This document shows positions 2,054-21,046 of a stretch of 64,000 bases of DNA, piece by piece. Made by a program: the position numbers and the translations under genes. The notes under the pieces were generated by a model. That model worked only from the letters and a program-made list of their open reading frames with translations, ran no database searches and was not told the origin of the DNA. Source of the DNA: a virus (taxonomy: Duplodnaviria > Caudoviricetes); the IMG/VR virus record IMGVR_UViG_2509276065_000002, positions 1 through 64,000 of that record; one strand, 5' to 3'. Position 1 is the stretch's first letter. Each line of letters begins with the position of its first letter.

Positions 2054-2797
2054 TCAAGGCAGCAGGATCGGATCGAAAATGACTTCTGTCGCCACGGTGA
2101 ACGTCGCGCCGTAATTGTTCGTGATCCACACCGCAGGCCCGTTGGTCGAGTCCGTCTTTCTCCACTGGGCCCCGGTCAGTTGCGTGCCGTCTGCCGTGGA
2201 CAGCGTAAGGTTCGCCGCAGGCAGCGTGCCCCACGAGTACCAGCGGGTGGTCGCTTCAATCACTCCCGTGAACGTGAAGCGAATCGCGACGGGCTCGGCG
2301 GCAACGAACGTGGAGGGTTGCGTGCTCGCCAGTGGCCCGACGAGCCCGATGGCCGCTCCACCACCACTTCCGCCGACGGACTGACCGGGAGTGTTGACCT
2401 TCAACCGTCCGGGTGCCACCTCAGCCCAAGGCAGCCACGTACCGGACGACGGGTTGAGCGAACGGTAGAACACCCGGGGTTGCCGGCCGGCCGTGGTGAT
2501 CGTCACCGTGAACTGCTGCCAGGCGTTCGTCAGGCTCGCGTTCGTGTTGAAGGCGGCGTACGTCAGCAGCATGCCCGGCAGGGTGCCACCCGCCGGCATG
2601 CCGGCGTCGTTGCCCGCTGTCGAGTACATCATCATCGAGTACCCGGGTGGGATCTTCGTGGCACTCGTGGCCGTGTGGCTCGACAGCACCTCACCTGGCA
2701 GGAGTTCGCACACCACGTTCTCCTTGATCAGGTTCAGCACGCGGGCCGTGACGGCCTGCCCGCCACTGAAGTCGGGGACCAGCTTATTTCTCGGCAT
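2054..2797 (-). CDS. Tail fibre / receptor-binding protein
   Basis: Last gene of the tail module; Gly/Thr-rich; WQQF...FYRS...GTWLPWAEV tail-fibre-type motif. Confidence 0.65.
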   Translation of the reverse strand: MPRNKLVPDFSGGQAVTARVLNLIKENVVCELLPGEVLSSHTATSATKIPPGYSMMMYSTAGNDAGMPAGGTLPGMLLTYAAFNTNASLTNAWQQFTVTITTAGRQPRVFYRSLNPSSGTWLPWAEVAPGRLKVNTPGQSVGGSGGGAAIGLVGPLASTQPSTFVAAEPVAIRFTFTGVIEATTRWYSWGTLPAANLTLSTADGTQLTGAQWRKTDSTNGPAVWITNNYGATFTVATEVIFDPILLP

Positions 2798-2807
2798 TCA
2801 CTCCCCC

Positions 2808-3275
2808 TTACCCGGCCGTGAGGTTGATGACCCACTCAACCGTGCACGCCAGCAGATTGGTCTTTTGAAAAGCGGCGACGTTCGCGGTCGCCAGCGTCGT
2901 GAAGGCGCCGGCCTGCCCGAGGTACAGACGCGCTCCGTTGATCGTCACGGGCTGCAGCGCGGGCTGCAGCGTCGAAATGTAGAGGATGTTCGTCACGCTG
3001 CCACCGACCGTGAACTGATCGGTCAGGTCCGCGCGGAACACCTCATTCGCGCCGCTGTGCACCCCGAGCTGGGTGATACCGTACTTCAAACCGCCGTTCA
3101 GCGGATCTGCCAGCAGCATCTGCGCGATGTACACCAGACCCAGACGCTCGATGGCGTTGTGATCGTCGTGCACCACGCGCGCCTGCTGGTAGGTGTCTCG
3201 GCTGTACGCGTACGCGGGGGGGTGTTCGAACACCCGCACGTGACCGGTCAGACCGAACGTAGCGTTCAGTTTCAT
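2808..3275 (-). CDS. Minor tail (baseplate-like) protein
   Basis: Position in the tail-tip cluster; RBS GGAGA; C-terminal KTN...TVEW.I motif. Confidence 0.6.
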   Translation of the reverse strand: MKLNATFGLTGHVRVFEHPPAYAYSRDTYQQARVVHDDHNAIERLGLVYIAQMLLADPLNGGLKYGITQLGVHSGANEVFRADLTDQFTVGGSVTNILYISTLQPALQPVTINGARLYLGQAGAFTTLATANVAAFQKTNLLACTVEWVINLTAG

Positions 3276-3691
3276 GTCTCTCCTTCCAGCCACGCCTCGG
3301 AGGCGCGCGTGAATGCACTCGTGAACAGGCGCGCGCTGCCTCCGATCAACTCGAAGGTCAGCTCGTCCTGCAGGAACGCCAGAACTTCACCGAGCTCCTC
3401 GTACAGCGCTTCGGAGGCCCGGGTGAATTCGCTGAGGTACGCGGTATCGCGCTCGTCGAAGTCCAGTGAAGTCAGGCCGGTGAAGGTCGCGTCGGCCGCC
3501 CCGAGCACCTGCGAGCGGCCGACCTGCATGTAGCCCAACCGGCAGCGTGCCGCGCCGAGGGTGGCGGTCACGCTGTCGGTCATCAGCACGGTGTCCGAGA
3601 ACAGCACCAAGCTCTCGACCGTCTCGTTGCCACCCCTGAGGGTTTTGGGACGCAGCAGGTCCGCCAGGGTGCGCTCCAGCTCGCGGGCCAT
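3272..3691 (-). CDS. Minor tail protein with C-terminal double FTRAS module
   Basis: Coupled to both neighbours; C-terminal 48 aa align without gaps to the 16895-17149 product. Confidence 0.65.
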   Translation of the reverse strand: MARELERTLADLLRPKTLRGGNETVESLVLFSDTVLMTDSVTATLGAARCRLGYMQVGRSQVLGAADATFTGLTSLDFDERDTAYLSEFTRASEALYEELGEVLAFLQDELTFELIGGSARLFTSAFTRASEAWLEGET

Positions 3692-4974
3692 CAGCCGACC
3701 ACCTTGCTGCCCGTCACGAACCACTCGCGCAGGTAGACGCTCGCGCCTTGCATCAAGGTGGTGCTGTGCGTGAAGCCTCTGAGGCGCAGCTCGACGTTCT
3801 GCAGTAGAAACGTCGAGCTGACCCCCAGGCGGGGTACGTTCACACGCTGACGCAGACCGCTCGTGAGGCCCGGGCGGGTGGTTTTGTACTGGATGGTCAT
3901 GGCGGGCGCCGCGAAGTACACCAGCTGCGCCTTGGCCACGGCGTTCGCTACCGGCCTCGAGGTGATCTGCTCATCGGTGACGGTGTGCTCCCACTCGCCG
4001 AACCGCGCAATGCTCGCTTCATCGCGCGCGCGCGTGATGATCTGCGTGAAGTACCGGTAGACCAGGCTCACCGTCGCGCCGGCCGCCGGGGTGGGCGTGC
4101 CCGCCTTCGCGGCGAGCACCACGCGGTTCTTGTAGTTCACCAGCCAGTCGACGGTGCCCACGTCGGCGACGCCTTCCTCACCCACGAGCTGGCCGACACC
4201 GTTGATCTTCATGATGAATGACCCTTCGGTGACTTCTCCGAGCGTCAGGGCGAACGAGCGTTGCACACCGTCTGCTTTGACGTCCTGAGTCACGAGGTCA
4301 CTGTCCATCCGCGCACCCTTCACCGTGACGACATTCCGCACCTGCAGCACGTCCTCGGTGTAGAGCAGGTCGCTGTAGGGCGCGCTGGCCGCGAAGGGCG
4401 TGCTGGCCTCCTCGGTCAGCGCCCACGCTTCCGGCGCTTCCCCAGGTGCCCGGAAGACCACATCCCGGCTTGTCGACGTGCTGGAGACGAACCAGTCGAA
4501 CCCGGCGAGGCGCGCGATGTCCTCGATGGCGTCAGCGGCATTGCGGTAGTTGATGGCGTACTTCTTCATGACCGGCCCGTCCTGCACGCCATTCGTCGTG
4601 AAGCCGTTGCCGACCTGCGCCACGATGTCGCGCACGATTGCGCCCGCAGTGACGTTCTCGTACGTCGCCGCGATCTGCTTGCGGGTCAGGAGCGTCTGGT
4701 TGTCATGCGCGGTGACGGGCACGATCACCTCGCCGGTGTTCCCGACATTCTGCCGGGGGGCCTGAACGATCACGCCGGCGAAGATGACCTCGGTGTCCTC
4801 CCGGAACACCACCGTCTGAGGTGGTGAAGGAATCAAGGGGAGCTGCGACGCCGCCAGGCGCATCGTGAAGTTGAAGGTGTCGACCTGGCTGGTGAGGTTG
4901 TACGCCACCACGACCGACGCCCATTCCACCTGCGCAGCGCGATCGACGCCGTTGATCTCAATAAAGAGCGCCAC
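3691..4974 (-). CDS. Tail-tip hub protein
   Basis: Directly after the tape measure gene; AGAIVRDIV...AADAIEDIARLAGFDWFV and SIARFG motifs. Confidence 0.75.
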   Translation of the reverse strand: MALFIEINGVDRAAQVEWASVVVAYNLTSQVDTFNFTMRLAASQLPLIPSPPQTVVFREDTEVIFAGVIVQAPRQNVGNTGEVIVPVTAHDNQTLLTRKQIAATYENVTAGAIVRDIVAQVGNGFTTNGVQDGPVMKKYAINYRNAADAIEDIARLAGFDWFVSSTSTSRDVVFRAPGEAPEAWALTEEASTPFAASAPYSDLLYTEDVLQVRNVVTVKGARMDSDLVTQDVKADGVQRSFALTLGEVTEGSFIMKINGVGQLVGEEGVADVGTVDWLVNYKNRVVLAAKAGTPTPAAGATVSLVYRYFTQIITRARDEASIARFGEWEHTVTDEQITSRPVANAVAKAQLVYFAAPAMTIQYKTTRPGLTSGLRQRVNVPRLGVSSTFLLQNVELRLRGFTHSTTLMQGASVYLREWFVTGSKVVG

Positions 4975-4977
4975 AGT

Positions 4978-7944
4978 TCACCTCAGGGCCGGCAGGTCGG
5001 CCCGCACGAGTTCACGCGTGCCTTGATAGATGCGCTGACCGACCTGCTGCGCGATGGTGCGGCCGTCCAGAATGACTTGCACGATGACCGACTCGCCACC
5101 TCCGCCGAGGCTCACCTCACCGTCGCGCAGGCCTTGCGCGAAGTTTTTGGGGATGATCATTTCGCCATCGTGAATCTGCGCCAGCTGGTCGCCTTTCACG
5201 TAGGTGGTTCCGACGTCGAAGCTGTTCACCAGCATCTTGGCGCCCTCGAACGCCAGGAAGGCCGCTCCGGCCGCAGCGACCATGCCCGGGATGGCCAGCA
5301 GGCTCGCCCCGAACGTCGCGGGAGCCTGCATGATCGCCACGGCGATCCCGGCCACCTGCTGCGCGATGATCTGCGCCTCGAGGCCGGTGAGCATCTGCAG
5401 CAGGAACTCCTTGAACGCCCCACCGAAATTCGAGAAGCCCTCTTGCGCCTGACCCCCGAGGAACTCGGCGAACTGCCCGGCGACCTGCATGCCCACGGCA
5501 GCCCAGCCAGTCATGCCTTGCGACCACTCGGTGAACTTGCCTTTCAGGAACGAACCGAATTTCGTCCAGCCTCCCTCGGTTGAAGTGAACGCCGCGAGGG
5601 CCGCTTCAGCGAAGTCCTGCACCTGCTTCAGGATCGGCCCGGCGCCTTCGCCGACCGCGGCTTTCACGGCCACCATTCCGAGCGTCATGATCGCGCCCCA
5701 GCGGCTTTTGTTCCCGTCGTGCTGGGTGGACCGGAAGGCGGTCAGGACGTCCATCCCGGCTTTCATGACACTGGAGAGCGTGCTGTCCTTCTCGCTCTCG
5801 ATGCCCCGCGTCAGACCTTCCATCAGCCAGCCGCCCATCTCGGCCGTCGCGCGAGACGGCGACTTCATCTTGAAGGTGTCCTTGAACCACGTCAGGACGT
5901 CCCCGCCGATGCCGACGACTTTCTTGCGGGTGTCTTCGTACTTCGCACTCAGGCCCATCATCAAGCCACCCAGCAGGTCGCTCCCGACGGTCTTCATGCG
6001 CGTCACCCACAAGTCGAAGCCTGCCTGCAGGTCACTCCAGCGGTTCGTCGCCCATGGCACGATGCCCTTGGTGCCGGTGATCGCCTCACTCCAGCTGGCT
6101 TTGGTCAGTTCCCACCACGCGGCGCCGGCATCCTTGATCTTCGACCCGAAAATCTTGCCGTCGATCCACAGGTTGCTGAGGGTCGTGACGGTGTCCGTGC
6201 TCCAACTGGTGACGAACTCCTTGACCGACTCGAGGGCCGGGAAGAGTTTGCGCATCAGCAGGTCGCTGCCTGCCTGGCCGACCTTGCCCGCGAGGACCTT
6301 GCCGTCCGTCCAGAGGTTCGCGAGGCTGGTGCCGACGTCGCGCGCCCAACTGGTCAGGAACTCGTTGGCGCCTTCGACCGTGGGCAGCAGTTTGGTGAGC
6401 AGGAAGTCGACTGAAGCGGCTTTGAGTTTGCCGCTGAAGATTTTGCCGTCCACCCAGAGGTTGCTGAGGGTCGTGGCGACGGTGTCACCCCAGCCCTGCA
6501 GGAACGTGCCGGCTTCGTTGAGCGAGGGCAGCAGCTTCTCCCACAGACCTTTGACCATCTTCTCGTTCTTGTCGAGCAGCGCGGTCAGGCTGTACTTGCT
6601 GAAAAAGCCCTTGATGGCCGGGGTGGCGACGTCATTCCACCACCAGATGATCGCCTCGTTCACCTCGTCCCGGTCCGCGCCGATCAAGGTGGACACCAGG
6701 CCATTCTTCATGTCCAGCAGGCCCTTGCCGACCTTGCTCCAGTCGGTCTGCGTGAAGCCGACCAGCGCGTCCATGATGCCCGTCGCGGCCTTCTTGACGC
6801 CTTCCCACTGGTTGCTTTTGCTGATGTCGGCCAGGAACTTGTTCCAGCTCTTGGTGATGTCTCCCTCGACGGACGCGCGGGTGACGTCCGCTGCACTTTT
6901 GACGCTGCCTTCGTACCCTTGCAGGGCCTGCTTGATGCGTTGAATCGCGTCGCCCGTGTAGCCCGCCGCGGCCTGCATGATCGGGCCGACCTCTTCACCG
7001 AACAGCACGCCCAGGGCCTGCTGTTCTTCTGCGGTGATTTTGTTGTCCGCCATGGCATTTTTCAGGCTGAGCATCATCAGCTCACCCGTGAGGATCGCGT
7101 CATTCTGCACGGTCTCCCGGTTGATGCCGAGGATCCCGAACATGTCGAGCAGCCCTTCGTCCGGATCCTCGCCTTTTTTGAAGGCGTTGCGGATGTCCCC
7201 CACGGCCTGGGAGAAGGTAATCAGGGCGTCCTTGGCCACCTCGGCATCACCGGCGTAGTAAGCGATCTGCCCCAGGAACGAGAGGCCATCGTCGAAGTCC
7301 TGGAAGGCGGTTTTCAGCAGGGGTGCGGCCTCGGCCATGGCGGCCGCCAGGCCTCCCGGGTCCACACCGATGGCGCGCGCGACCGCGTAGATTTTGTCGC
7401 CTGATTCACGCAGGGCCTCCAGCGTGTCCCGGTCCTTGAAGTACACCAGGATCAACCGGCGGAAATTCTTGCCGGCCTCCTCGATCGCCTGGCCCGTCGC
7501 GGCTTTCCAGTCGATCAGGTAGGTGGCGATGCCTTCTTTGTTTTTGGGGTTGAAGATCAAAAAGTCCGTGGCAACCGACTTCAAAGCCGCGCTGACGTCG
7601 GACATGCTGGCGCCCGTCGCGGCCGCCAGGTCCTTGAGCTGCCCGGCAATTTCAGGCAGTGAATCTTTCGTGGCGCCACTGATCCCACCGAGCTCCGCGG
7701 CGGCCTGCTGCACCTCGCGCTCCAGCGCGATGAGTTGCGCTCCGACCAGCAGCGCCGCGCCACCCAGGCCGAACAGGGCTGCGCGGGCGATGTTCGCCCC
7801 GGCCGCCAGGGCGCCCTGCATGCTCCGCCCGGCATTGTTCACCTGCTTCTCGCTCTTCTGCGCGTTGTTCCCTGCTTGCTGCATGACCTTGGACGCTTCG
7901 TCCCGGGCCCGCATGATGATTTCGATGATGCTCTCTGCAGCCAT
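4978..7944 (-). CDS. Tail tape measure protein
   Basis: 988 aa, Ala/Gly/Trp-periodic helical; MKSPSR and FDVGT..V..DQLAQIHDGEMIIP motifs. Confidence 0.92.
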   Translation of the reverse strand: MAAESIIEIIMRARDEASKVMQQAGNNAQKSEKQVNNAGRSMQGALAAGANIARAALFGLGGAALLVGAQLIALEREVQQAAAELGGISGATKDSLPEIAGQLKDLAAATGASMSDVSAALKSVATDFLIFNPKNKEGIATYLIDWKAATGQAIEEAGKNFRRLILVYFKDRDTLEALRESGDKIYAVARAIGVDPGGLAAAMAEAAPLLKTAFQDFDDGLSFLGQIAYYAGDAEVAKDALITFSQAVGDIRNAFKKGEDPDEGLLDMFGILGINRETVQNDAILTGELMMLSLKNAMADNKITAEEQQALGVLFGEEVGPIMQAAAGYTGDAIQRIKQALQGYEGSVKSAADVTRASVEGDITKSWNKFLADISKSNQWEGVKKAATGIMDALVGFTQTDWSKVGKGLLDMKNGLVSTLIGADRDEVNEAIIWWWNDVATPAIKGFFSKYSLTALLDKNEKMVKGLWEKLLPSLNEAGTFLQGWGDTVATTLSNLWVDGKIFSGKLKAASVDFLLTKLLPTVEGANEFLTSWARDVGTSLANLWTDGKVLAGKVGQAGSDLLMRKLFPALESVKEFVTSWSTDTVTTLSNLWIDGKIFGSKIKDAGAAWWELTKASWSEAITGTKGIVPWATNRWSDLQAGFDLWVTRMKTVGSDLLGGLMMGLSAKYEDTRKKVVGIGGDVLTWFKDTFKMKSPSRATAEMGGWLMEGLTRGIESEKDSTLSSVMKAGMDVLTAFRSTQHDGNKSRWGAIMTLGMVAVKAAVGEGAGPILKQVQDFAEAALAAFTSTEGGWTKFGSFLKGKFTEWSQGMTGWAAVGMQVAGQFAEFLGGQAQEGFSNFGGAFKEFLLQMLTGLEAQIIAQQVAGIAVAIMQAPATFGASLLAIPGMVAAAGAAFLAFEGAKMLVNSFDVGTTYVKGDQLAQIHDGEMIIPKNFAQGLRDGEVSLGGGGESVIVQVILDGRTIAQQVGQRIYQGTRELVRADLPALR
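6120..6545 (-). repeat. Three ~48-aa repeats within the tape measure protein
   Basis: TLSNLWVDGKIF / SLANLWTDGKVL / TLSNLWIDGKIF. Confidence 0.8.
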
Positions 7945-8720: not shown

Positions 8721-9671
8721 TCAGTTGAAGCTGGCGACGGAGTTGACCAGCTGAGCCTGGAAGGCACGGGAAGTACCCGTGTCGTACTGCGCTTCGCCGC
8801 TGTAGCTCAGCGTGATGCGCCCGTCCCCTCCGATGGCAACGCCGGCATCCGTGATCAGCGCTTTGGGGACGCTGAAGGTCAGGGTGTGCGCGCCTTGCGT
8901 GTGCACGATCGACCAGGCTTCCTGCGTGAAGTTCTTGAACGCGGTGTAAAGCGCCAGGGACTGGAAGTCCGCCGCACCGCCGATGGTGATGGTGCGCGCG
9001 CCGCTGAACGCCACGCGGCTGATGGTGTTGCCCGTGCCGATGAGCTTCACGCCCTCGAGGCTGTTGGTGATGCTGAGGTTGTAGTCCTGAATCGTCGCGT
9101 CCGAGCCGCCACCGCGTGACAGGGCGCAGTTGGTGTTGAAGGGCGTCGATGTCGGTAGGGTTACGGTGGGCGCGGCGACACTCGCGGCGTCCTTACCGAT
9201 CCACTGACTGTCGAACATCAGCAGTCCGTTCGCGGCGTACTTGAAGCTCAAGCTCTGGCAGACCATGCCGCTGTACTGCACGACCTGCCCGGCGAGGCTC
9301 GACGCGCTCGGCCGCACCACCGTGAAGGTGTACGAAGGCAAGGCGGACAGGGCACTCCACGCGCTCTGTGTGGGGTTGAAGGTGTGCGTGTACGGGCCGA
9401 CACCCGTGACGGTCGGGATGCCCAGCACGGCGCGCAGCAGGTGGCCGATCTGGTCGGGCAGCACCACGCCGGACAGCGAACCGCTGACCATCAGGGTGCC
9501 GGCGTACTTGGGACTCTGATCGAGGATCCCGCGGATCTGCAGTTCAGAGAGCGCTTCGGGGCCGTCCTTGAAGCCTTCGGACGCGAAGGGAATGAAGATG
9601 GTAGGAGCGACGGCCGTGCCCCAGGTGACTTCCCGGGCCAGGCCGACGGAACCGAGGGCGCCGACGTTCAT
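8721..9671 (-). CDS. Major tail tube protein
   Basis: GLAREVTWGTAV start, YTHTF, SYTF motifs; position. Confidence 0.88.
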   Translation of the reverse strand: MNVGALGSVGLAREVTWGTAVAPTIFIPFASEGFKDGPEALSELQIRGILDQSPKYAGTLMVSGSLSGVVLPDQIGHLLRAVLGIPTVTGVGPYTHTFNPTQSAWSALSALPSYTFTVVRPSASSLAGQVVQYSGMVCQSLSFKYAANGLLMFDSQWIGKDAASVAAPTVTLPTSTPFNTNCALSRGGGSDATIQDYNLSITNSLEGVKLIGTGNTISRVAFSGARTITIGGAADFQSLALYTAFKNFTQEAWSIVHTQGAHTLTFSVPKALITDAGVAIGGDGRITLSYSGEAQYDTGTSRAFQAQLVNSVASFN

Positions 9672-13309: not shown

Positions 13310-15121
13310 TTACCCGCGCAGGTGCGGGTACTTCTTACGGGCAAGGACGATGGCGTCCTTTTGGCGGACGGACGGGTTTTCCGCTTTGACTTCCTCCAGC
13401 GCCTGGTCGAGGGTGACGTGGCTGGTGGTCTGGTGGAAGGTCTGCTCGCCCGTCTTGACGATGCCGACTTTCGCGAACTCCAGCAGGGCGAGGGCGATGA
13501 CCTCACCGGGCTTGTGTTCGCTGGTTCTGCCGCCGCGCGTGAGCTTGATGGTGGCCTGGCTGTCGAAGTCAGCCTCGAGGAGCGGGCGGGCGAGATTCAC
13601 CACGTGAGGGGGAACGCCGGCGCGCTGGAAGTGATCGAGGGTGATGGCCAGGGAACCGTCGAAGTTCTTGCGCCTGAGCTTGATGACTTCAGCCTGCGCG
13701 TCGGCCAGTTCGCGTTTCAGCTGCACTGACCGGGCGGGGCGGAGGTCTGAGAGTTGGATGGCCTCCAGGCCAGGAACGAAGGGGCGGTTGGTGAGTGCAC
13801 CACCGAGCATGACGGGCCCCGTGGGGTTGCCCGTCTTGTCATTGATGCCCGGGTGAACGCTGACGGACCACCAAGAGAACTCGCCGTTCTTGATGGACTC
13901 AGCGGCAGGTTTGGTGAAGTCGACCAGCGCGTACACCCGCTCGCCTTCGAGCTTCAGGTCGCAGATGTACCCGCTGGCTTTCTGGCTGGCCGGATCCGCG
14001 CTGGGGTCATCCATCGCGTGCCCGTAATCCGCAGCGACGCGTGGCTTGCCGTCCGGACCGATGCCGCCGAACACACCGGCCTGCAGGTTCTTCTGCCAGC
14101 TGTTGAAGTCGTCTTCGGTGAAGGTGATCGTGCCGTACTCGTCGTGCTCGTACGTGCCGAGGTTGATGACGTTCACCCAGGTGGCCGTCTTGCCTTCCTC
14201 GAGCAGGGTGGGCTTGAGGGGCGTGAAGAACCGCCGGCGGGACGTGGGCCGGTCGCTGAGCTGCAGGCCGGGCAGTTCCCCGCCAGCGCCCTCGGTCGCC
14301 GGGGGTGGCTCGGCGGTCGCGCTGGCCTCCTGGGGTTCCCCGAGGGTGGGCGTGCCGTCCGGTGCGACGCGCAGTTCCACGGTGTGCAGGGTGCCTTCGT
14401 CCGTTTCATCCTCGGGGTTGAGGACATCGAAGGTCACCTCGGATACCAATTCCTCGCCTTCACCGGCATCTTCGACGGTGACCTTGGTGATGGTGACGAG
14501 CTGACCCGGGTACTTCGCGCCGAGCAGCGACGTGGCCGCGTCACGCACCTGCGTTTCGCGATCGTCCGGTGTGGCCAGCGTCTGCGCCTCTTCCTCGACG
14601 GGAGGTGCAGCGGCCGCGGGCGAAGCGGGCGGCTCGTCGATCACGGCCGTGATCGACGCTTCGGTGGCAGCCACCTGCTTCTTCAGGATCCCGGCGATCG
14701 CTGCGGTGGTTTCCGCGTCGCCTGCCTGGGCGGCTTCGACCATGGCCGCCTGCAAGTTCTCGTTGAAGACGCGGGTGCCGCTGCGCAGCATGCTGGTCAG
14801 CAGGTGGCGCGTCAGCGTCGACGTGGGCTGCTCGGGCGGGATGGCTTCTCCCTCACTTGCAGTCGCGCTGGCCTCGCCGGGCGTGGCGTAAGTCGGCACG
14901 ACTTCCACCGGACTGCCGGCCAGGCTGACGGTCAGGTCGGTGACGGTGAAGTCCTGACGGTACAGTTTGCCGTCTGATTCGTTCTGGTACACGGCGTAAG
15001 TGCCGTACAGGTCACGCACCCAAATGACCCACGGAACGTAGGTACCGTCCGGCTGATCACCGGCGCCGGGATTCAGGAGGGCTTGGAGTTGCTGGCGAAT
15101 CTGGTCTGAGCTGAGTTCCAC
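13310..15121 (-). CDS. Prohead protease/scaffold (Mu-like) with long acidic N-terminal extension
   Basis: DYGH, ASGYI, FT..A...IKNGEF..WS, GALTNRPFV.GL motifs; GGAGG before GTG 15121. Confidence 0.88.
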   Translation of the reverse strand: MELSSDQIRQQLQALLNPGAGDQPDGTYVPWVIWVRDLYGTYAVYQNESDGKLYRQDFTVTDLTVSLAGSPVEVVPTYATPGEASATASEGEAIPPEQPTSTLTRHLLTSMLRSGTRVFNENLQAAMVEAAQAGDAETTAAIAGILKKQVAATEASITAVIDEPPASPAAAAPPVEEEAQTLATPDDRETQVRDAATSLLGAKYPGQLVTITKVTVEDAGEGEELVSEVTFDVLNPEDETDEGTLHTVELRVAPDGTPTLGEPQEASATAEPPPATEGAGGELPGLQLSDRPTSRRRFFTPLKPTLLEEGKTATWVNVINLGTYEHDEYGTITFTEDDFNSWQKNLQAGVFGGIGPDGKPRVAADYGHAMDDPSADPASQKASGYICDLKLEGERVYALVDFTKPAAESIKNGEFSWWSVSVHPGINDKTGNPTGPVMLGGALTNRPFVPGLEAIQLSDLRPARSVQLKRELADAQAEVIKLRRKNFDGSLAITLDHFQRAGVPPHVVNLARPLLEADFDSQATIKLTRGGRTSEHKPGEVIALALLEFAKVGIVKTGEQTFHQTTSHVTLDQALEEVKAENPSVRQKDAIVLARKKYPHLRG

Positions 15122-15178
15122 GGTGGACCTCCAATGAAAGAGCCCCACCGATCGGTGGGGCGGGCTTGTGGTGCGGGG

Positions 15179-15298
15179 TTAGGGGCGCCGGCGGGGGGCG
15201 TGCAGCCAGTTGAGCCAGGCGAAGTAAGCGAGGATCAGCACGGCCAGGATGAAACCGAGAATCCAGGGCAGGACGAGCCAGAACGCCCAGCACTTCAC
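15179..15298 (-). CDS. Small membrane peptide (39 aa)
   Basis: GTGA-coupled; single TM helix with basic tail. Confidence 0.5.
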   Translation of the reverse strand: MKCWAFWLVLPWILGFILAVLILAYFAWLNWLHAPRRRP

Positions 15299-15648
15299 AG
15301 GAACACCGCCACGGTCGGCGTGATGGTCTCGTCGACCAGCGTGCCGTCGTCTTGCTTCACTTTCACGGTGCGGGGTTCCATCTTGTGGACCTGCCACTTT
15401 TTGAGGTGCTTGGCTTTGAAGTTCGCGCGGCTGGTCCCGAACGATTCGGGCGGCACGGGTTTATCGGCGGTCTGCCGCACGCGGCACACGAAGGTTTTGT
15501 TGCCTTGGGCGTCAACGGCCTCACCGCCGCCGAGGGCGGGCGCGCACGCCTCGAAGCCGCTGCTGTCCGGCACGCCCAGGCCGACGCCGTGCTCGTCTTT
15601 GGCTTCCGGCAGGACCATGATGTAATCGGTAAATTCACGCATAGTCAC
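15295..15648 (-). CDS. Hypothetical virion protein
   Basis: Coupled ORF with phage-like codon use. Confidence 0.6.
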   Translation of the reverse strand: MTMREFTDYIMVLPEAKDEHGVGLGVPDSSGFEACAPALGGGEAVDAQGNKTFVCRVRQTADKPVPPESFGTSRANFKAKHLKKWQVHKMEPRTVKVKQDDGTLVDETITPTVAVFL

Positions 15649-15649
15649 C

Positions 15650-16891
15650 TCAGATGGTGGGCAGGGTGATGCGGTTGAGTTCGGCGAGCCAGCGCACGTC
15701 CAGGTCGGCGATTTCCTGTGCCGTCATGGCGCGCGGCGTGATGAAGGGGATGCCCAGGCCAGGAGCGCCAGGGGCGATCAGGCCAAACGTGTGCTTGGCC
15801 TGCCCCTCTTGACTTCCAAGAACGAGGGTGGTCGCCTGCACCTGAAGTGGTGTGGCAACCGTGCCACTAAGAGCGCCTTCGCTGTAGACGCTGACGCTGG
15901 AACCGTCCGAAGTGACAATCGTTCTTAACCAAGTGCGGGCCACGTTGTTTGGCTGTGCGACTGCATTACTTGTCCCGTTGTAACGTACTTGGCGGCCATA
16001 GCCGGTGCCGTGCCGCACTTCGAGCGCCACGCCCAAATCACCCCCGGAACCCGTGCCGAAGCTGAGCGGGGGTTGCTGAAACCCCGTAACTCCCTCGTTC
16101 CAGTGAGCGACGGCCAGCGTGAACGGCTGGAACGGCTTGAGGAGTCCGGCCAGCCCATTGGCCGTCCATGTGTCGTGGGCTCGCGTGGTCGCCGTTCCCG
16201 CTGTGGAGGGAATGAACGAGGAAGAAAAGGCCGCGCTGCGCTCGAACTGTGGCGCGGCGATTCTAAAGGTGTGGTCCACCGCGAAGGGCAGGGCCGCGGT
16301 GGACGGAATGGTGACGGTCACGAAGAAGCGGTCAAGCGCATTGGCGGGCTCGGCGGGAGCGGCGACGCTGGCCACCCCACTGATGCGCTTGAAGGTGCGG
16401 TCAAGTTGCGCGTGGACATTGACTGAAATACTCGTCAGGTACGATCCGTCGCTTTGCTTGGTCAGGTCCGAGTACAGCGCAAAGGTGTTGAGCTGCGCCT
16501 TATCCCCAGAGCGGAGCGCGGCGTGGATCGAGTAAGCGTGGTTATCCCCTGCGGTGTACGCGCCCACGACGGCGCCCGTTTGGAAAATGAAGTAGAAGCC
16601 GCGTGTCGCTTCGATGTTGCCGTATACCCGCACATCGAGGTAGTTCAGTCCATCCTGAACGCCGCTCCCGACGACTTCCGCGTTGAGGTTGCCGTTGTCG
16701 TAGCGGTGGAAGCTCCAGTGAGTCGAAAGGGCGGCGCTGCTCCCTGTTGTTCCCGCGAAGATCGGGCCGCTCATGGGTGCTCCGGGGTCGGTGCGTTTGA
16801 TGAGGTTGGTGCGCTGCCCTTCGATCAGCACGGCGGGACTTCCGGTGTTCTTGCCGTAAATGCGGGGCACGTCATTTGCTACGAGGGGCAT
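15650..16891 (-). CDS. Head-spike/fibre protein with LamG/concanavalin-like C-terminus
   Basis: N-terminal NDVPR...LIEGQRTNL, APQFER...SSFIPST...TTRA.D, C-terminal PRAMTAQEI. Confidence 0.78.
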   Translation of the reverse strand: MPLVANDVPRIYGKNTGSPAVLIEGQRTNLIKRTDPGAPMSGPIFAGTTGSSAALSTHWSFHRYDNGNLNAEVVGSGVQDGLNYLDVRVYGNIEATRGFYFIFQTGAVVGAYTAGDNHAYSIHAALRSGDKAQLNTFALYSDLTKQSDGSYLTSISVNVHAQLDRTFKRISGVASVAAPAEPANALDRFFVTVTIPSTAALPFAVDHTFRIAAPQFERSAAFSSSFIPSTAGTATTRAHDTWTANGLAGLLKPFQPFTLAVAHWNEGVTGFQQPPLSFGTGSGGDLGVALEVRHGTGYGRQVRYNGTSNAVAQPNNVARTWLRTIVTSDGSSVSVYSEGALSGTVATPLQVQATTLVLGSQEGQAKHTFGLIAPGAPGLGIPFITPRAMTAQEIADLDVRWLAELNRITLPTI

Positions 16892-16894
16892 GTG

Positions 16895-17149
16895 TTACTC
16901 CCAGGCGCCCGAGGCGCGCGTGTACGTCGAGGTGAACAGGAGGGGGTTCGCTTCGTTCTGCGTGAAGTTCAGGCTGACGGGCAGGCGCGCGTAGACCCCG
17001 CCGACGGCGTCCCACTTGGCGGCGCTGGCGCGCATGAAGGCGCTGAAATCACTGCCGCGCGAGGTACGGAAGCCCAGTGCGTTGTCCTGTGGAGCGAACG
17101 TCGCGCCACCCGTCGCGCGCTTCTTGCGCAGGGCGATGACCGCGCTCAC
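16895..17149 (-). CDS. Small fibre adaptor with double FTRAS module
   Basis: In frame with the downstream fibre gene, separated only by TAA CAC; FMRAS and YTRAS motifs. Confidence 0.65.
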   Translation of the reverse strand: MSAVIALRKKRATGGATFAPQDNALGFRTSRGSDFSAFMRASAAKWDAVGGVYARLPVSLNFTQNEANPLLFTSTYTRASGAWE

Positions 17150-17150
17150 C

Positions 17151-17432
17151 TCAGGCTCCGGTGGACTGCGCCCAGACCACGACGATCGTGCCGCTGGTGT
17201 ACGCACTGCACCTTGCCCGGGCGAAGGCGGCATCTTCGAGAATGTTGCGCAGTACCGGCGCGCTCTCCGTGCTGGCGGGCAGCCAGTCGACCCCGTTGTT
17301 ACTGATCTCGATCACAACGGTGCCTGAGAACACTCCGCTCACCTGAAAGGACTTCAGGGGGGAGTTCTGGATAGGAATAGGGTTGGCGGCGCCGACGGCG
17401 TTCAGTTCCTGGCGGGTTTGTTGTGCGGGCAT
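17151..17432 (-). CDS. Small head-associated beta protein
   Basis: FQVSGVFSGTVVIEISNNGVDW motif common in phage head regions; GGAG RBS. Confidence 0.7.
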   Translation of the reverse strand: MPAQQTRQELNAVGAANPIPIQNSPLKSFQVSGVFSGTVVIEISNNGVDWLPASTESAPVLRNILEDAAFARARCSAYTSGTIVVVWAQSTGA

Positions 17433-17446
17433 AGGGTCTCCAAGGA

Positions 17447-17473
17447 GAAACCCGCCACAAGGGCGGGTTTCTT
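17447..17473. terminator. Terminator downstream of the HEPN moron
   Basis: GAAACCCGCC-acaag-GGCGGGTTTC inverted repeat. Confidence 0.8.
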
Positions 17474-18846
17474 CAGCTTTTAATGAGGGGTATGGGGACG
17501 GATTCCTGATGGAGTTGTAGAAGTAGGTTGCGGTGAGGTAGCGACAGCAGAGCCCTATCTAACAAACCCATCAGGTTATCCTTACGTGAGTTTGATTTTT
17601 TGAGTAGCAAGCTTAGCAGGATTAAAACACGAGTGAACTGGAGCAGTATTGGCAGATGATTCTCGGCCTCGGCCCGCTTTTTAGCACTGAGCAATCCTCC
17701 ATGAACATATGTGCTGCGATTGTCGTAGCACTTCGCGAGCATGGTACTTGCCTCTATTGGCTCGACTCCTTCGAGACTAAGAAGCAAGGCAGCTCGCTGG
17801 CAGAGCCGTCGCTTCAACTCCGGCTTATTCTCTCCAAAAAGAGCTTCTAGGGCACCAACTAGACGAGCGATTTTCGCGTCAGTAATGGTGTCCACTTTGA
17901 ACGACTCGTGATAGCGGCTGAGAGCTATGTCGATTTCAGGGTATCCAGTCCAAGTATCCCGACTACCGCTCGGTTTGCCCGAGTCAATCACCGCCAACAC
18001 AGGCTCCCGAAGCACGCGGAACAACTCAAGGTGCTTGCTGCTGAACTCGAACCCTTGGTCTACTTTCCAGGATTCAGTCGACCATGACGTATGGACGTTG
18101 TTAAACGGCACATAGTTTTCTGCGATCGTCATGACCGCCTCAACACTGCCTGTTCCGATGAGGGAGAGGGTTTGGAGCATTCTGACAGCATCTTCTTGGT
18201 ACGCATCTGCTGAGGGGTACTTCTTGTGGATATCGAGGACTGCGGATGGGTAATCACGAAGTGGTGAGTTTCGCTCCCCGAGTATCCTTAAATCCGCAGC
18301 AATATCCTCGGCAGTAATCCTCCTGAGAACTACTCCGGGCTCTAACCCGTACGACTCCTCCATCAAGTAGACGCCAGTTATCCAGGAGGTCGTTATGAAC
18401 GTTGGTCGTTCCCCAACCGCTCGGTCAACAAGGGCATCTCGCACCTTGGTGAATAGGTGAGGGTTGTCGAGCTTTCCTTCGAGAAGGGCATGGACAATTC
18501 TTCGGAGAGTGGTGTCTATAACTACCTCACGCCCCGCCTCGCCTTGGTAAGGAGGTCCTAAGAGGGCCTCTCTCGCTTTAGCAATAGGATGCGCAGGATC
18601 TTCGAACTCTGCCATCATCTGGACGAAGGAGGACATACCCTTAACTAAACGAGGTCTCTCTTCCGAGTGATGCGAGGTGATTTGAAGTCTTGGCTCAAAT
18701 CGCATTTCTGACGGAAGCCAGACTTGTTCGGTTCGGCGATAGACCAATAACTTCCCACTTTTAGCAGCGTCCGCAACCTCGTGCACAATAGTTTGCAGGT
18801 ACAGATCAGCGAGCCTGGTTGCAGTGTTGCGGTCGGGGTGGGTCAC
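17473..18846 (-). CDS. HEPN-domain (ApeA-like) protein, candidate anti-phage RNase
   Basis: ALSRY...LVGALEALF...L.RRL.QRAA.LL...YDNRSTYVHG (R-X4-H); visibly lower GC. Confidence 0.82.
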   Translation of the reverse strand: MTHPDRNTATRLADLYLQTIVHEVADAAKSGKLLVYRRTEQVWLPSEMRFEPRLQITSHHSEERPRLVKGMSSFVQMMAEFEDPAHPIAKAREALLGPPYQGEAGREVVIDTTLRRIVHALLEGKLDNPHLFTKVRDALVDRAVGERPTFITTSWITGVYLMEESYGLEPGVVLRRITAEDIAADLRILGERNSPLRDYPSAVLDIHKKYPSADAYQEDAVRMLQTLSLIGTGSVEAVMTIAENYVPFNNVHTSWSTESWKVDQGFEFSSKHLELFRVLREPVLAVIDSGKPSGSRDTWTGYPEIDIALSRYHESFKVDTITDAKIARLVGALEALFGENKPELKRRLCQRAALLLSLEGVEPIEASTMLAKCYDNRSTYVHGGLLSAKKRAEAENHLPILLQFTRVLILLSLLLKKSNSRKDNLMGLLDRALLSLPHRNLLLQLHQESVPIPLIKS

Positions 18847-18862: not shown

Positions 18863-21046
18863 TTACAGATCGTGTATGCGACGCACCCAGTTGCCGTTCG
18901 CGTCTTCCTCTTCGAGCCAGCAGCGGCAGTAGATGCCGCACTGGGTCTTGCCGTCGCCTGGAATGGCGGGCAGGTCCCGAATGGAAGCGTAGACGCCCGC
19001 ATGCCGGGGGCAGTCAGGGCAGTGGCTGGCGAGGTTGTCGAGCACCCAGCGGATGCGGCCGTGCGTGACGTCCGGGTCCTCTTCGCGCTGCATGCGCTTG
19101 TCCACCCAGCCTTCGACGATGGTCGCCCAGTAGTCACCGCCGCCCTGCTTGGTCACGTAGCCCATTCTGACCTGGATGAGGCCGTGCAGCTCGCTCGCCG
19201 TGGCGCCGGGCAGGTCTGTGGCGATCTTCTGCCCGACTGTGGCGATCGTGCGGGCCAGTCCTTCCTCGAGGAGCTTGAGCCGCTCAGCGAGGGTGGCCAG
19301 GCTGTCTGGTGTGGGGGTGGGGCCGAGGCCGAGGGTGTAACCGGCCGGGATGGCTTCACGGTACGCGGTGAGGGCCAGCTTCTGCAGTTGCCGCAGTCGG
19401 GACTCCAGCACGGCCGGACGCTCGACGTCGATCACGTCAGCGAGGGCTTTCGCGGTCCCTTTCGACCAGGTCTCGTACAGCTCGCCGAGGAGTTCCTGGA
19501 AGGCTTTCGTCTGCGTCTCCCACTCGCGGCCGTGTGTGGCTTTGCGCACGCCGGGCACATCGAGGTCGAAGGTGTGAACCTTGGGGACCTTGGCCGTGGC
19601 CTGAATCGCTGCTGGAGCTGCAGCGGCGTGCCCGGGCTGGTCGCTCCCGGCGCCCTGGGCCGTCACGCCGTCCCCGATTTCCGAAGCGAGCACCGGCACG
19701 CCGAGTTCCTTGGCGAGAGCCTCGGTGTCGACCTTGAGGGCGCCGGGATTGTACATCAGCACCTGACCGAGGAACTGCTTGAAGAAATCCTGCAGGAAGC
19801 TCTTGTTGCCCTGGCTGAGCTTCACCGGCGCGAAGGAGGCGTCGACCACGGAGGATCCGAAGTTGTAGTCGATCAAGGGGCGCGCCCAGCTGGCCGCGAT
19901 GAACTCCAGCATCTCGGCGGCGAGGGCCTCTTCGGACATCAGGAAGAAGTCCGCGAGGCTCTCGACCATCGCGAAGCTGCCGCCACCCTGGCCACTCGCG
20001 ATGAGCTTCTCGGGGACGAACATGGCGCGCAGTTTCTTGAAGTCGTAGTGATCGAGCAGCGTGATGAACTCGCCGGCCTTCTGCGGGCCGGTGAGGTACT
20101 CCATGTCCCAGCCCTTCTGGTAACTGAGGCTCTCGCCGTTCTGCACTTCCTGCAAGGGGAAGGCGATGGCACTGCCGGCCCGGCTGTCCTCGGCGACACG
20201 TAGGGCGTCAGCGAGGGCGAGGTCCACGTACGCGCTCTCGGGGTTGTTGGGGTCGGAGACTCGCAGGTCGGGCTCGTAAAAGACTTTGCGCTGCGGGATC
20301 GCCTGGTCTTCCATGTAGCGGTTGCTGAACTGGTAGAGCAGCTGCTGCCACCACCAGTACTTGTACGCCGCGCGCGTGCGGGGGTTGCCGTAGCGGTTCC
20401 CGAACTGCTCGTCGTGCGTATAGATCAGCGCCTTGTCTTCAGGGACGTCCGCGCGACCGCCGCTGGTCTGCTTGAAACCCAGGCCTTCGCCGCGCTCTCC
20501 GGTGATCAGTTCGATCGCCGCGGGGTGCATCCACTTGAGCTTCTCGTACACCACGGCGTTCCCGGACCACAAAGTGCGGCCACGGCGCTGAATGGTGGTG
20601 TCCTTGTACGTGAAGACCTTCTCGGCGGCCGCGAAGCCGAACTCGAGGGCGCGCAGGATGTTGCGCATCAGGCGCAGGCGGTTGCGGTCGAATTCGTGCT
20701 GCAGGAACTCGCGCACTTCCGGCTCGGGGTGCACGACCTCGGGGCGCAGCGTGAGGATCGGCAGCTTGATGATCTCCAGCCCGGCCTTCACCTGCCCGTC
20801 GAGCGCCAGGCGTTCGAGTGTCACGGGATCGAGGCGTGTGAGGACGCCTTTGCGCGGGTCTTCGATCTGGGTGTAGTAGCGGCCGGTGGTCTGCACTTGC
20901 GGATCCTGCCGGCCGGTGAGTTCCCCTTTGGGTGGCCGGGTCAGGCGGCTGTCAGCGGCTTCGAAGAGTCGAGCGGCGCGGGAGCTGCCGAGCGTCAGCG
21001 TGAGCTCCGCGCGTTCGGTGCTGGAGAGCTGCAGTTCTTTGGTCAT
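18863..21046 (-). CDS. Portal protein (Mu gp29/DUF935-like) fused to a minor-head gpF-like C-terminal domain
   Basis: ALEFGFAAAEKV, YGNP...AYKYWW motifs; C-terminal W...HCPDC...PGDGKTQCGIYCRC. Confidence 0.88.
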   Translation of the reverse strand: MTKELQLSSTERAELTLTLGSSRAARLFEAADSRLTRPPKGELTGRQDPQVQTTGRYYTQIEDPRKGVLTRLDPVTLERLALDGQVKAGLEIIKLPILTLRPEVVHPEPEVREFLQHEFDRNRLRLMRNILRALEFGFAAAEKVFTYKDTTIQRRGRTLWSGNAVVYEKLKWMHPAAIELITGERGEGLGFKQTSGGRADVPEDKALIYTHDEQFGNRYGNPRTRAAYKYWWWQQLLYQFSNRYMEDQAIPQRKVFYEPDLRVSDPNNPESAYVDLALADALRVAEDSRAGSAIAFPLQEVQNGESLSYQKGWDMEYLTGPQKAGEFITLLDHYDFKKLRAMFVPEKLIASGQGGGSFAMVESLADFFLMSEEALAAEMLEFIAASWARPLIDYNFGSSVVDASFAPVKLSQGNKSFLQDFFKQFLGQVLMYNPGALKVDTEALAKELGVPVLASEIGDGVTAQGAGSDQPGHAAAAPAAIQATAKVPKVHTFDLDVPGVRKATHGREWETQTKAFQELLGELYETWSKGTAKALADVIDVERPAVLESRLRQLQKLALTAYREAIPAGYTLGLGPTPTPDSLATLAERLKLLEEGLARTIATVGQKIATDLPGATASELHGLIQVRMGYVTKQGGGDYWATIVEGWVDKRMQREEDPDVTHGRIRWVLDNLASHCPDCPRHAGVYASIRDLPAIPGDGKTQCGIYCRCWLEEEDANGNWVRRIHDL

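What the first reader, a model, noticed from the sequence alone, without database searches (positions are those of the whole stretch)
3272..3440. The same 48-aa double-FTRAS module ends a tail-tip protein 13 kb away
Seen: SEFTRASEALYEELGEVLAFLQDELTFELIGGSARLFTSAFTRASEAW aligns without gaps to SAFMRASAAKWDAVGGVYARLPVSLNFTQNEANPLLFTSTYTRASGAW (16895 gene). I count 22/48 identities, and both proteins end within a few residues of the final W. No LamG gene follows the tail copy. This argues that the split at 16892-16897 is not accidental. Inference: one fibre protein may be displayed at both capsid and tail tip through a shared docking tag.
Basis: partly seen in the sequence, partly recalled or inferred. 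Interest (0 to 1): 0.8.

Follow-up and report, generated by a model that had tools for sequence, protein, structure and literature searches.

The report
Split phage lectin fibre, two handles
A prophage has cut the first strands off its sugar-binding fibre protein and carries those strands on two small proteins, one beside the fibre gene and one at the tail tip. The same free fibre subunit may therefore plug into two sites on the virus particle, but binding has not been shown.

Summary
The two 48-residue stretches align without gaps (22/49 identical, pairwise E 1e-9; 0 of 2000 shuffles reach the score). They are the only two copies in the 4.5 Mb genome. Each ends 1 to 5 residues before a stop.

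The stretch is not a free-standing tag. It is the opening strands of a concanavalin-like jelly roll of the RcGTA head-spike-fibre (Rcc01080) family.
- In every other relative that carries the strand (about 30 proteins, 29 metagenome loci), it runs on in the same frame into the LIEGQRTN motif.
- Only here is the chain cut: TAA, one codon, then ATG behind a GGGAG ribosome site.
- This yields an 84-aa strand donor and a 413-aa lectin body.

No lectin gene follows the tail copy. The one related prophage found lacks both the fibre cassette and the tail small gene.

The best reading (about 0.45) is that both small proteins hold the same lectin body by completing its fold in trans. "Capsid" for the 84-aa protein is not supported: its cassette is an insertion in the head module, and its closest relatives are tail fibres.

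This scan noted similar free-lectin/shared-handle patterns on other genomes (e1-5194030, e1-5330463; not checked here).

The parts
3290..3433 (-). Tail-module copy of the 48-aa double-FTRAS module (C-terminal end of the 139-aa protein)
   Evidence: BLASTP against the other copy: 22/49, E 1e-9. tblastn coordinates. Shuffle test 0/2000.
3272..3691 (-). Gene for the 139-aa small protein (P0008). Its ATG overlaps the stop of the hub-like gene, and its TGA overlaps the ATG of the next gene (ATGA).
   Evidence: No Pfam, PHROG or NCBIfam hit. No homologue of near length among 5.8 billion proteins. The Atlas model has pLDDT 0.34.
3691..4974 (-). Hub-like tail-tip protein (427 aa), directly after the tape measure gene (4978-7944)
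   Evidence: Pfam YQBQ-like, E 4e-7. PHROG 196 baseplate hub.
2808..3275 (-). 155-aa protein downstream of the tail copy. It is not a lectin body; it belongs to a widespread family of small viral structural proteins.
   Evidence: hhalign against the fibre profile gives probability 0.4%. Atlas structure matches at TM 0.76-0.80 to viral clusters of 140-190 aa.
16901..17044 (-). Second copy of the 48-aa module (C-terminal end of the 84-aa protein)
16895..17149 (-). Gene for the 84-aa strand-donor protein (P0009). GTG start one base after the stop of the 93-aa gene.
   Evidence: Present as an 84-aa protein in the public collection.
16889..16906 (-). The split: the last codons contain GGGAG, then TAA, one codon (CAC), then ATG. 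All are in one frame.
   Evidence: Sequence read. The genome search counts one TAA inside a 553-aa open frame. Unchanged in contigs of 4 runs.
15650..16891 (-). 413-aa lectin body (P0003). It starts just after the FTRAS strand and carries the LIEGQRTN, SSFIPS and ATRA motifs and the conserved C-terminal helix.
   Evidence: A profile containing it hits RcGTA head spike fibre Rcc01080 at E 2.3e-14. Weak Pfam Laminin_G_3 match.
15295..15648 (-). 117-aa gene coupled to the lectin body; function unknown; part of the inserted cassette
   Evidence: No homologue in the related prophage.
17151..17432 (-). 93-aa conserved head-module gene that marks the upstream border of the inserted cassette
   Evidence: A 45% identical homologue lies directly between portal and protease in the related prophage G156.

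Best explanation
The 48-residue module is the N-terminal 'opening' part of the outer concanavalin-like jelly roll of an Rcc01080-type receptor-binding fibre. It consists of a beta-hairpin and the FTRAS strand, preceded by an extra FTRAS.

In this prophage that fold is split between two translationally coupled genes. An 84-aa protein carries the opening strands, and a 413-aa protein carries the rest of the fold. A second, diverged copy of the strands ends a 139-aa protein encoded right after the tail hub.

Most likely both small proteins are anchors that hold the same free lectin subunit by supplying its missing strands in trans. This would give the particle two attachment sites for one swappable receptor-binding protein.

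Shown: the homology, the split, its position inside the predicted fold, and the lack of any other partner in the genome. Inferred: the binding itself and the location of each site on the virion.
For: - Module homology is significant.
- In about 30 protein relatives and all 29 metagenome loci, the FTRAS strand, where present, lies about 30 residues upstream of LIEGQRTN on the same chain. Only the window has a stop between them. No other retrieved locus has an ORF that ends just after FTRAS.
- The Arg of FTRAS is at least 90% conserved across 41 family members.
- The AlphaFold model of the closest short contiguous relative (P0013; pLDDT 80, pTM 0.80) places the hairpin (31-43) and the FTRAS strand (55-58) as strands at pLDDT 82-88.
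- Solved concanavalin-like jelly rolls align to that model from residue 26-28 to about 350 at Z 11-17.5. The strands are therefore part of the fold.
- The split has a stop, GGGAG and ATG within 12 bases. The small gene is itself coupled to its upstream neighbour.
- Both copies keep the family motifs despite having diverged to 45% amino-acid identity and roughly 60% DNA identity by eye, and both end at the same point.
- The genome holds one lectin body of this family and it lacks the strands.
- The related prophage in G156 lacks both the 84+413+117 cassette and the 139-aa gene.
Against: - No binding test could be run.
- The AlphaFold model of the window's own read-through is poor (pLDDT 52; residues 1-114 below 50), so it says nothing about how the strands pack in this particular protein.
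- Only one genome shows the arrangement, and the presence/absence comparison rests on one distant relative (30-45% identity).
- The first FTRAS of the module has no counterpart in the modelled relative, so its role is unknown.
- The tail already has its own fibre-like gene (2054-2797).
- The lectin body has lower GC3 than the 84-aa gene, so the pair may be a recent and untested combination.
Confidence: 0.45

Rival explanations
1. The tail copy is a relic. The 139-aa protein is the anchor part of a former tail fibre whose lectin part was lost or replaced, like the 'anchor with truncated protein' forms described in Klebsiella phages. It no longer holds a lectin, or at most serves as a spare site.
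For: - Truncated first RBPs that keep only the anchor are documented (PMC6872550, read).
- The closest contiguous relatives are tail fibres with varied N-terminal stems joined to the same conserved junction. That is the pattern expected of modular exchange at this junction.
- The module part of the 139-aa gene has lower GC3 than its N-terminal part: 0.75-0.82 against 0.93-0.97.
Against: - Both FTRAS motifs in the tail copy match the family consensus perfectly.
- The gene ends in a tidy ATGA overlap with the next gene.
- No lectin remnant lies downstream.
- A random truncation would rarely fall within 5 residues of the same point as the other split.
Confidence: 0.25
2. The head-module pair is simply a fibre gene broken by a stop codon. 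The 413-aa product, made by restart, is either useless or folds without the strands. The two modules are alike only by common descent.
For: - The two ORFs are in the same frame with one codon between them.
- No second genome with the split was found.
- All records of these proteins come from one strain.
Against: - A ribosome site and an ATG sit right at the stop.
- Compared with relatives, the junction differs by several codon changes and a one-codon insertion, not by a single nonsense change.
- The second copy ends at the same point after long divergence, which suggests that the cut is old and maintained.
Confidence: 0.15
3. The module is an autonomous assembly or oligomerisation element with different partners at each site (for example the 155-aa or 247-aa tail proteins), and it does not bind the lectin body.
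For: - The 139-aa gene is coupled to the 155-aa gene.
- The first FTRAS and the segment after it have no counterpart in the modelled relative.
Against: - The downstream tail proteins show no likeness to the lectin family.
- The 155-aa protein belongs to a family of complete small proteins.
- In relatives the homologous strands are part of the lectin fold.
Confidence: 0.12

Closest known systems
RcGTA head spike fibre Rcc01080 (GhsB) on its pentameric base Rcc01079 (PDB 6TB9/6TBA/6TSU/6TUI; PMC7296036, PMC10218006)
   Same: Same protein family at profile level: E 2.3e-14 with a profile of the window protein and four close relatives, and E 1.4e-50 with the wider profile. Same motif series (FTRAS, N.PR, LIEGxRTN, SSYIPT, ATRAxD). 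Both are lectin-like, polysaccharide-binding accessory fibres.
   Different: - Rcc01080 is one chain, anchored by its own residues 2-10 in the base pentamer. Here the chain is cut after the first strands.
- No base homologue was detected.
- The cassette is an insertion in the head module.
- A second copy of the strands sits on a tail-module protein.
- The window protein itself does not reach NF048003.
Adapter and anchor-branched receptor-binding systems of podophages (K1-5/SP6 gp37 adapter; G7C gp66/gp63.1; Klebsiella KP32/KP34 groups, including 'anchor with truncated protein'), PMC6872550
   Same: A receptor-binding protein encoded without its own particle anchor is held by a small separate anchor protein. 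Truncated anchors persist as docking sites. The arrangement allows host-range modules to be swapped as whole genes.
   Different: - Those systems dock a short N-terminal peptide of the RBP onto a T4gp10-like or T7 gp17-like adapter. No such domains are found here.
- The proposed joint here is completion of a split jelly roll.
- The same joint is carried by two different proteins 13 kb apart.
Solved phage proteins with the same inner domain: 9B45 gp46 'baseplate wedge 2', 8ENV/8EON gp45, 9OCC tail fibre gp17 (names as in the PDB)
   Same: Profile matches from the LIEGxRTN region onward (E 7e-22 to 3e-11). They show that the family is used on baseplates and tail fibres as well as on heads.
   Different: The matches start after the FTRAS strand. 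All are single chains. I did not examine their structures.
Donor-strand complementation in chaperone-usher pili (textbook knowledge, not tested here)
   Same: An incomplete beta-sandwich is completed by a strand from another polypeptide.
   Different: No homology. The pilin fold is Ig-like, and the donor is the next subunit rather than an anchor protein.

Membership tests
Rcc01080-type head spike fibre / NCBIfam NF048003 GTA_spike_fiber domain | Match to NF048003 above its cut-off (36 bits) | tested here: not met
   The window read-through and the 413-aa protein give no hit at E up to 1. Close relatives do: P0011 79.7 bits, P0012 104 bits, P0022 165 bits. P0013 scores 34.4, just under the cut-off.
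Rcc01080-type head spike fibre / NCBIfam NF048003 GTA_spike_fiber domain | Sequence homology to Rcc01080 itself | tested here: met
   The profile of the window protein plus four close relatives against PDB 6tb9_F3 gives E 2.3e-14. The wider profile gives 1.4e-50. Single-sequence phmmer finds nothing, so membership is at profile level only.
Rcc01080-type head spike fibre / NCBIfam NF048003 GTA_spike_fiber domain | Motif series FTRAS ... N.PR ... LIEGxRTN ... SSYIPT ... ATRAxD on one chain | tested here: not met
   All motifs are present, but FTRAS is on the 84-aa protein and the rest on the 413-aa protein. The relatives that carry FTRAS have it on the same chain.
Rcc01080-type head spike fibre / NCBIfam NF048003 GTA_spike_fiber domain | N-terminal hydrophobic plug bound to a pentameric jelly-roll base on capsid vertices | tested here: inconclusive
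   The 84-aa protein has no Leu-Gly repeat like Rcc01080 residues 2-10. The neighbouring 93-aa and 117-aa proteins give no PDB match to Rcc01079. Only sequence was compared.
Adapter / anchor-branched RBP systems (K1-5 gp37, G7C gp66) | Adapter carries a T7 gp17-like anchor or T4gp10-like docking domain | tested here: not met
   No Pfam, PHROG or NCBIfam hit for either small protein.
Adapter / anchor-branched RBP systems (K1-5 gp37, G7C gp66) | RBP encoded without its own anchor and held non-covalently by the adapter | not testable with these tools
   The gene structure fits, since the 413-aa protein starts just after the strands.
Concanavalin-like / LamG jelly-roll fold | Fold match of the lectin body including the N-terminal strands | tested here: met
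   Tested on the contiguous relative P0013 (pLDDT 80): Z up to 17.5, about 190 residues aligned, over model residues 26-28 to 350. The window protein has only a weak Pfam Laminin_G_3 hit (E 0.007), and its own model was poor.

The most novel reading that the evidence does not exclude
One free lectin subunit is hung at two different places on the virion, possibly head and tail. Two unrelated anchor proteins each end in the same strand set, which completes the lectin's split jelly roll. This would be a plug-and-socket system for receptor-binding proteins, and it may recur in other phages: scan notes e1-5194030 and e1-5330463 describe similar layouts elsewhere.
Probability: 0.3. Interest if true: 0.75.

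Novelty: new variant of a known kind. Interest (0 to 1): 0.55.

Why it matters
Phage host range is set by receptor-binding proteins and by how they are fastened to the particle.

- The known fastening modes are a fused anchor or a short peptide that docks onto an adapter. A lectin fold cut after its first strands and completed in trans by either of two anchor proteins would be a third mode.
- It would allow one swappable gene to arm two sites at once.
- It would give a simple handle for engineering what a phage particle displays.
- It also explains a class of small 'hypothetical' proteins next to fibre genes.
- If instead the tail copy is a relic, the locus still documents that the FTRAS junction is a preferred break point in the modular evolution of this widespread fibre family.

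Tried and rejected
The genomic context of the closest contiguous relatives (P0011, P0012, P0013, P0015, from Logan/ENA assemblies) could not be fetched.
- The AlphaFold model of the window read-through was too poor to use (pLDDT 52).
- No match for the window or the 139-aa protein in the phage collection.
- No relatives of the fibre in 60 related genomes or in 364 genomes of the phylum.
- Both scans of genome contigs found nothing.
- IMG/VR gave only one distant jumbo-phage locus with a contiguous 948-aa fibre.
- Hub-based scans for more related prophages gave only G156 plus two very distant hubs. The co-occurrence test therefore rests on a single comparison.
- The phmmer job with the read-through N-terminus did not recover even the window's own tail copy at E 0.001. 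It cannot show that other module-ended small proteins are absent.
- Two of its hits (P0014, P0016) are FG-GAP-like repeat proteins and were rejected as chance matches.
- The idea that the whole 84-aa protein is a shortened paralogue of the 139-aa protein (LR.K...GG near both N-termini) is not supported statistically.
- The idea that the first FTRAS unit is a duplicate of the first 38 residues of the fold is not supported beyond the motif itself.
- The idea that the 155-aa protein is a second strand-less lectin was rejected.
- Stop-codon read-through was considered unlikely (TAA, my own knowledge) and was not tested.
- No RNA holder was listed among the sequencing runs.
- Foldseek top hits to clostridial neurotoxin binding domains reflect the shared lectin-like jelly roll only.

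Full report
**Setting.** The window lies in a 4.5 Mb, three-contig bacterial genome. Other notes of this scan point to a Deinococcus-type host. Bases 1-23000 carry the late operon of a prophage on the minus strand:
- large terminase, 21121-22818
- portal, 18863-21046
- a low-GC 457-aa gene
- a 93-aa gene
- the 84-aa gene, 16895-17149
- the 413-aa gene, 15650-16891
- a 117-aa gene
- protease, scaffold and major head protein
- connectors
- tube, 8721-9671
- chaperones
- tape measure, 4978-7944
- a hub-like 427-aa gene, 3691-4974
- the 139-aa gene, 3272-3691
- genes of 155, 247 and 317 aa

**The observation.** The two stretches are as written.
- BLASTP gives 22/49 identities without gaps, E 1e-9.
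- A shuffle test gives score 87 against 21.5 +/- 4.3, with none of 2000 shuffles reaching it.
- The similarity does not extend significantly upstream.
- These are the only two copies in the genome.
- The DNA is roughly 60% alike by eye, so the copies are old.
- Real gene starts make the proteins 139 aa (ATG overlapping the hub stop) and 84 aa (GTG one base after the stop of the 93-aa gene).

**What the module is.** A phmmer search of 1.84 billion representatives with the read-through of the 84-aa gene into the start of the 413-aa gene found five true relatives.
- In these relatives the FTRAS strand runs straight on into the segment that ends in LIEGQRTN. They match the window residue for residue across the stop codon, with one extra codon in the window.
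- They also share the C-terminal helix of the 413-aa protein.
- Their N-termini are unrelated to each other. Two have collagen-like tail-fibre stems (Pfam Collagen; PHROG tail-fibre families). Two have an unknown 125-aa domain. One has a short 55-aa leader.
- A profile search then brought in 34 proteins, and a metagenome scan brought in 29 loci.
- Wherever FTRAS (or FKRAS, FTRAT) is present, it lies about 30 residues upstream of LIEGxRTN in the same frame with no stop.
- No retrieved locus other than the window has an ORF that ends just after FTRAS.
- The family is that of the RcGTA head spike fibre Rcc01080. A profile of the window protein with four close relatives hits PDB 6tb9_F3 at E 2.3e-14, and the wider profile hits it at 1.4e-50.
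- NCBIfam NF048003 (GTA_spike_fiber) covers only the stretch from LIEGxRTN to ATRAxD. It is met by the relatives but not by the window protein itself.

**Where the cut lies in the fold.** The model of the window read-through was poor (pLDDT 52). The closest short contiguous relative, P0013, modelled well with a 41-sequence alignment (pLDDT 80, pTM 0.80).
- A hairpin (31-43) aligns with the segment between the two FTRAS motifs of the window module. That hairpin and the FTRAS strand (55-58) are confident strands, at pLDDT 82-88.
- VIA-align matches to many solved concanavalin-like jelly rolls (Z 11-17.5, about 190 residues aligned) span the model from residue 26-28 to about 350. The smaller pentraxin-type matches begin at 80-83.
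- I read this as an outer jelly roll made of the N-terminal strands plus the C-terminal half, with the NF048003 domain inserted between them. Only alignment ranges were available, not coordinates, so this reading is an inference.
- The Arg of FTRAS is at least 90% conserved in 41 sequences, as expected for a core element.

The cut after FTRAS therefore falls inside a domain. The 413-aa protein lacks strands that its relatives have, and both small proteins carry them.

**Is the split accidental?**
- The junction reads GGGAG, TAA, CAC, ATG, all in one frame. That is a ribosome site, stop and start packed into 12 bases.
- Against relatives it differs by several codon changes and a one-codon insertion, not by a single nonsense change.
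- The 93, 84, 413 and 117-aa genes are separated by 1 to 3 bases.
- The TAA is the same in contigs of four runs, but these are all the same strain.
- The tail copy ends 5 residues after the same W, with an ATGA overlap into the next gene.
- Two ends at one point, after divergence to 45% identity, mean one of two things: the cut predates the divergence of the copies, or the junction is a favoured break point. Either way it argues against a fresh lesion. I could not find a second genome with the split, so conservation cannot be shown.

**Partner of the tail copy.**
- The three genes downstream are unrelated to the lectin family.
- The 155-aa protein belongs to a widespread family of complete small viral proteins.
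- No lectin remnant lies nearby.
- The genome holds only one lectin body of this family, and it is the one lacking the strands.

**A related prophage.** One was found in another family of the same order (G156, 30-45% identity from terminase to hub).
- There the 93-aa homologue lies directly between portal and protease.
- Neither the 457-aa gene nor the 84+413+117 cassette is present.
- The hub is followed by a weakly 155-aa-like gene (E 0.02), with at most a 69-aa unrelated ORF in between.
- The cassette and the 139-aa gene are therefore absent together. This is a single comparison with a distant relative.

**Head or tail?** The cassette is an insertion in the head block, so its position says little about where the protein sits.
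- The closest contiguous relatives look like tail fibres.
- Solved relatives include a baseplate wedge protein and a tail fibre as well as the GTA head spike.
- RcGTA anchors its fibre by residues 2-10 in a pentameric base (PMC7296036). The 84-aa protein has no such repeat, and no base homologue was detected.
- I therefore keep 'two attachment sites' and drop 'capsid' as unsupported.

**Composition.**
- GC3 falls from 0.97 in the last 40 codons of the 84-aa gene to 0.75-0.80 in the lectin body.
- Within the 139-aa gene it falls from 0.93-0.97 in the N-terminal part to 0.75-0.82 in the module.
- The samples are small. The pattern fits exchange of lectin cassettes at this junction but proves nothing.

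**Comparison with known systems.**
- In family terms this is an Rcc01080-type fibre at profile level.
- In working terms it resembles the adapter and anchor-branched systems of K1-5, SP6, G7C and the Klebsiella podophages, where a receptor-binding protein without an anchor is held by a small anchor protein and truncated anchors persist (PMC6872550). The adapter domains of those systems are absent here. The proposed joint, completion of a split jelly roll, is different.
- I found no paper describing a split Rcc01080-type fibre in a limited search.
- Two earlier notes of this scan describe similar layouts on other genomes. I did not check them.

**Verdict.** My best reading, at about 0.45, is a split lectin fibre with two strand-donor anchors. 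The main rivals are a relic anchor at the tail (0.25), a broken fibre gene (0.15), and a module with other partners (0.12).

Noticed in passing
window 17473-18846 (-): A 457-aa gene with much lower GC (0.52; GC3 0.55) than its neighbours (GC3 0.83-0.87) lies between the portal and the 93-aa gene. It is absent from the related prophage G156, so it looks like a moron insertion. Another note of this scan calls it HEPN-like; I did not test that.
   Followed up: partly
window 15295-17149 (-) versus L037 9700-9990: The 84+413+117-aa cassette is an insertion relative to the related prophage in G156, where the 93-aa homologue sits directly between portal and protease.
   Followed up: yes
window 16770-17020 and 3272-3691: GC3 steps at the module borders: 0.97 in the last 40 codons of the 84-aa gene against 0.75 in the first 40 codons of the lectin body, and 0.93-0.97 in the N-terminal part of the 139-aa gene against 0.75-0.82 in its module. 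This hints at separate histories, but the samples are small.
   Followed up: partly
window 2808-3275 (-): The 155-aa protein after the tail copy has no Pfam or PHROG hit. It matches several large clusters of 140-190-aa viral proteins by predicted structure (TM 0.76-0.80); about 14% of the members of one cluster carry Pfam Phage_tail_fib. This is a common, unnamed tail-tip component.
   Followed up: partly
window 2054-2797 (-): The 247-aa protein starts with the ..VTA..LN.I..N.. motif. The same motif begins the 429-aa fibre-like protein of the G156 prophage. It is probably the tail's own fibre.
   Followed up: partly
proteins P0019 and P0021 (898 aa, metagenomic): These family members have three nested or tandem lectin units and, near the end, three consecutive copies of a 12-residue TATRAAD-type strand. 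Strand motifs of this family therefore do get duplicated elsewhere.
   Followed up: no
window 13310-15148 (-): The protease gene is long (612 aa), and the Mu-like protease match covers only residues 372-505. The G156 homologue (636 aa) has the same layout, so it is a conserved fusion with an unexplained N-terminal half.
   Followed up: no
proteins P0014 and P0016: Cellular FG-GAP-like repeat proteins score against the module (E 1e-5 to 2e-4) through a recurring YVFTRS.G.W motif. This is a trap for motif-based searches for FTRAS.
   Followed up: yes
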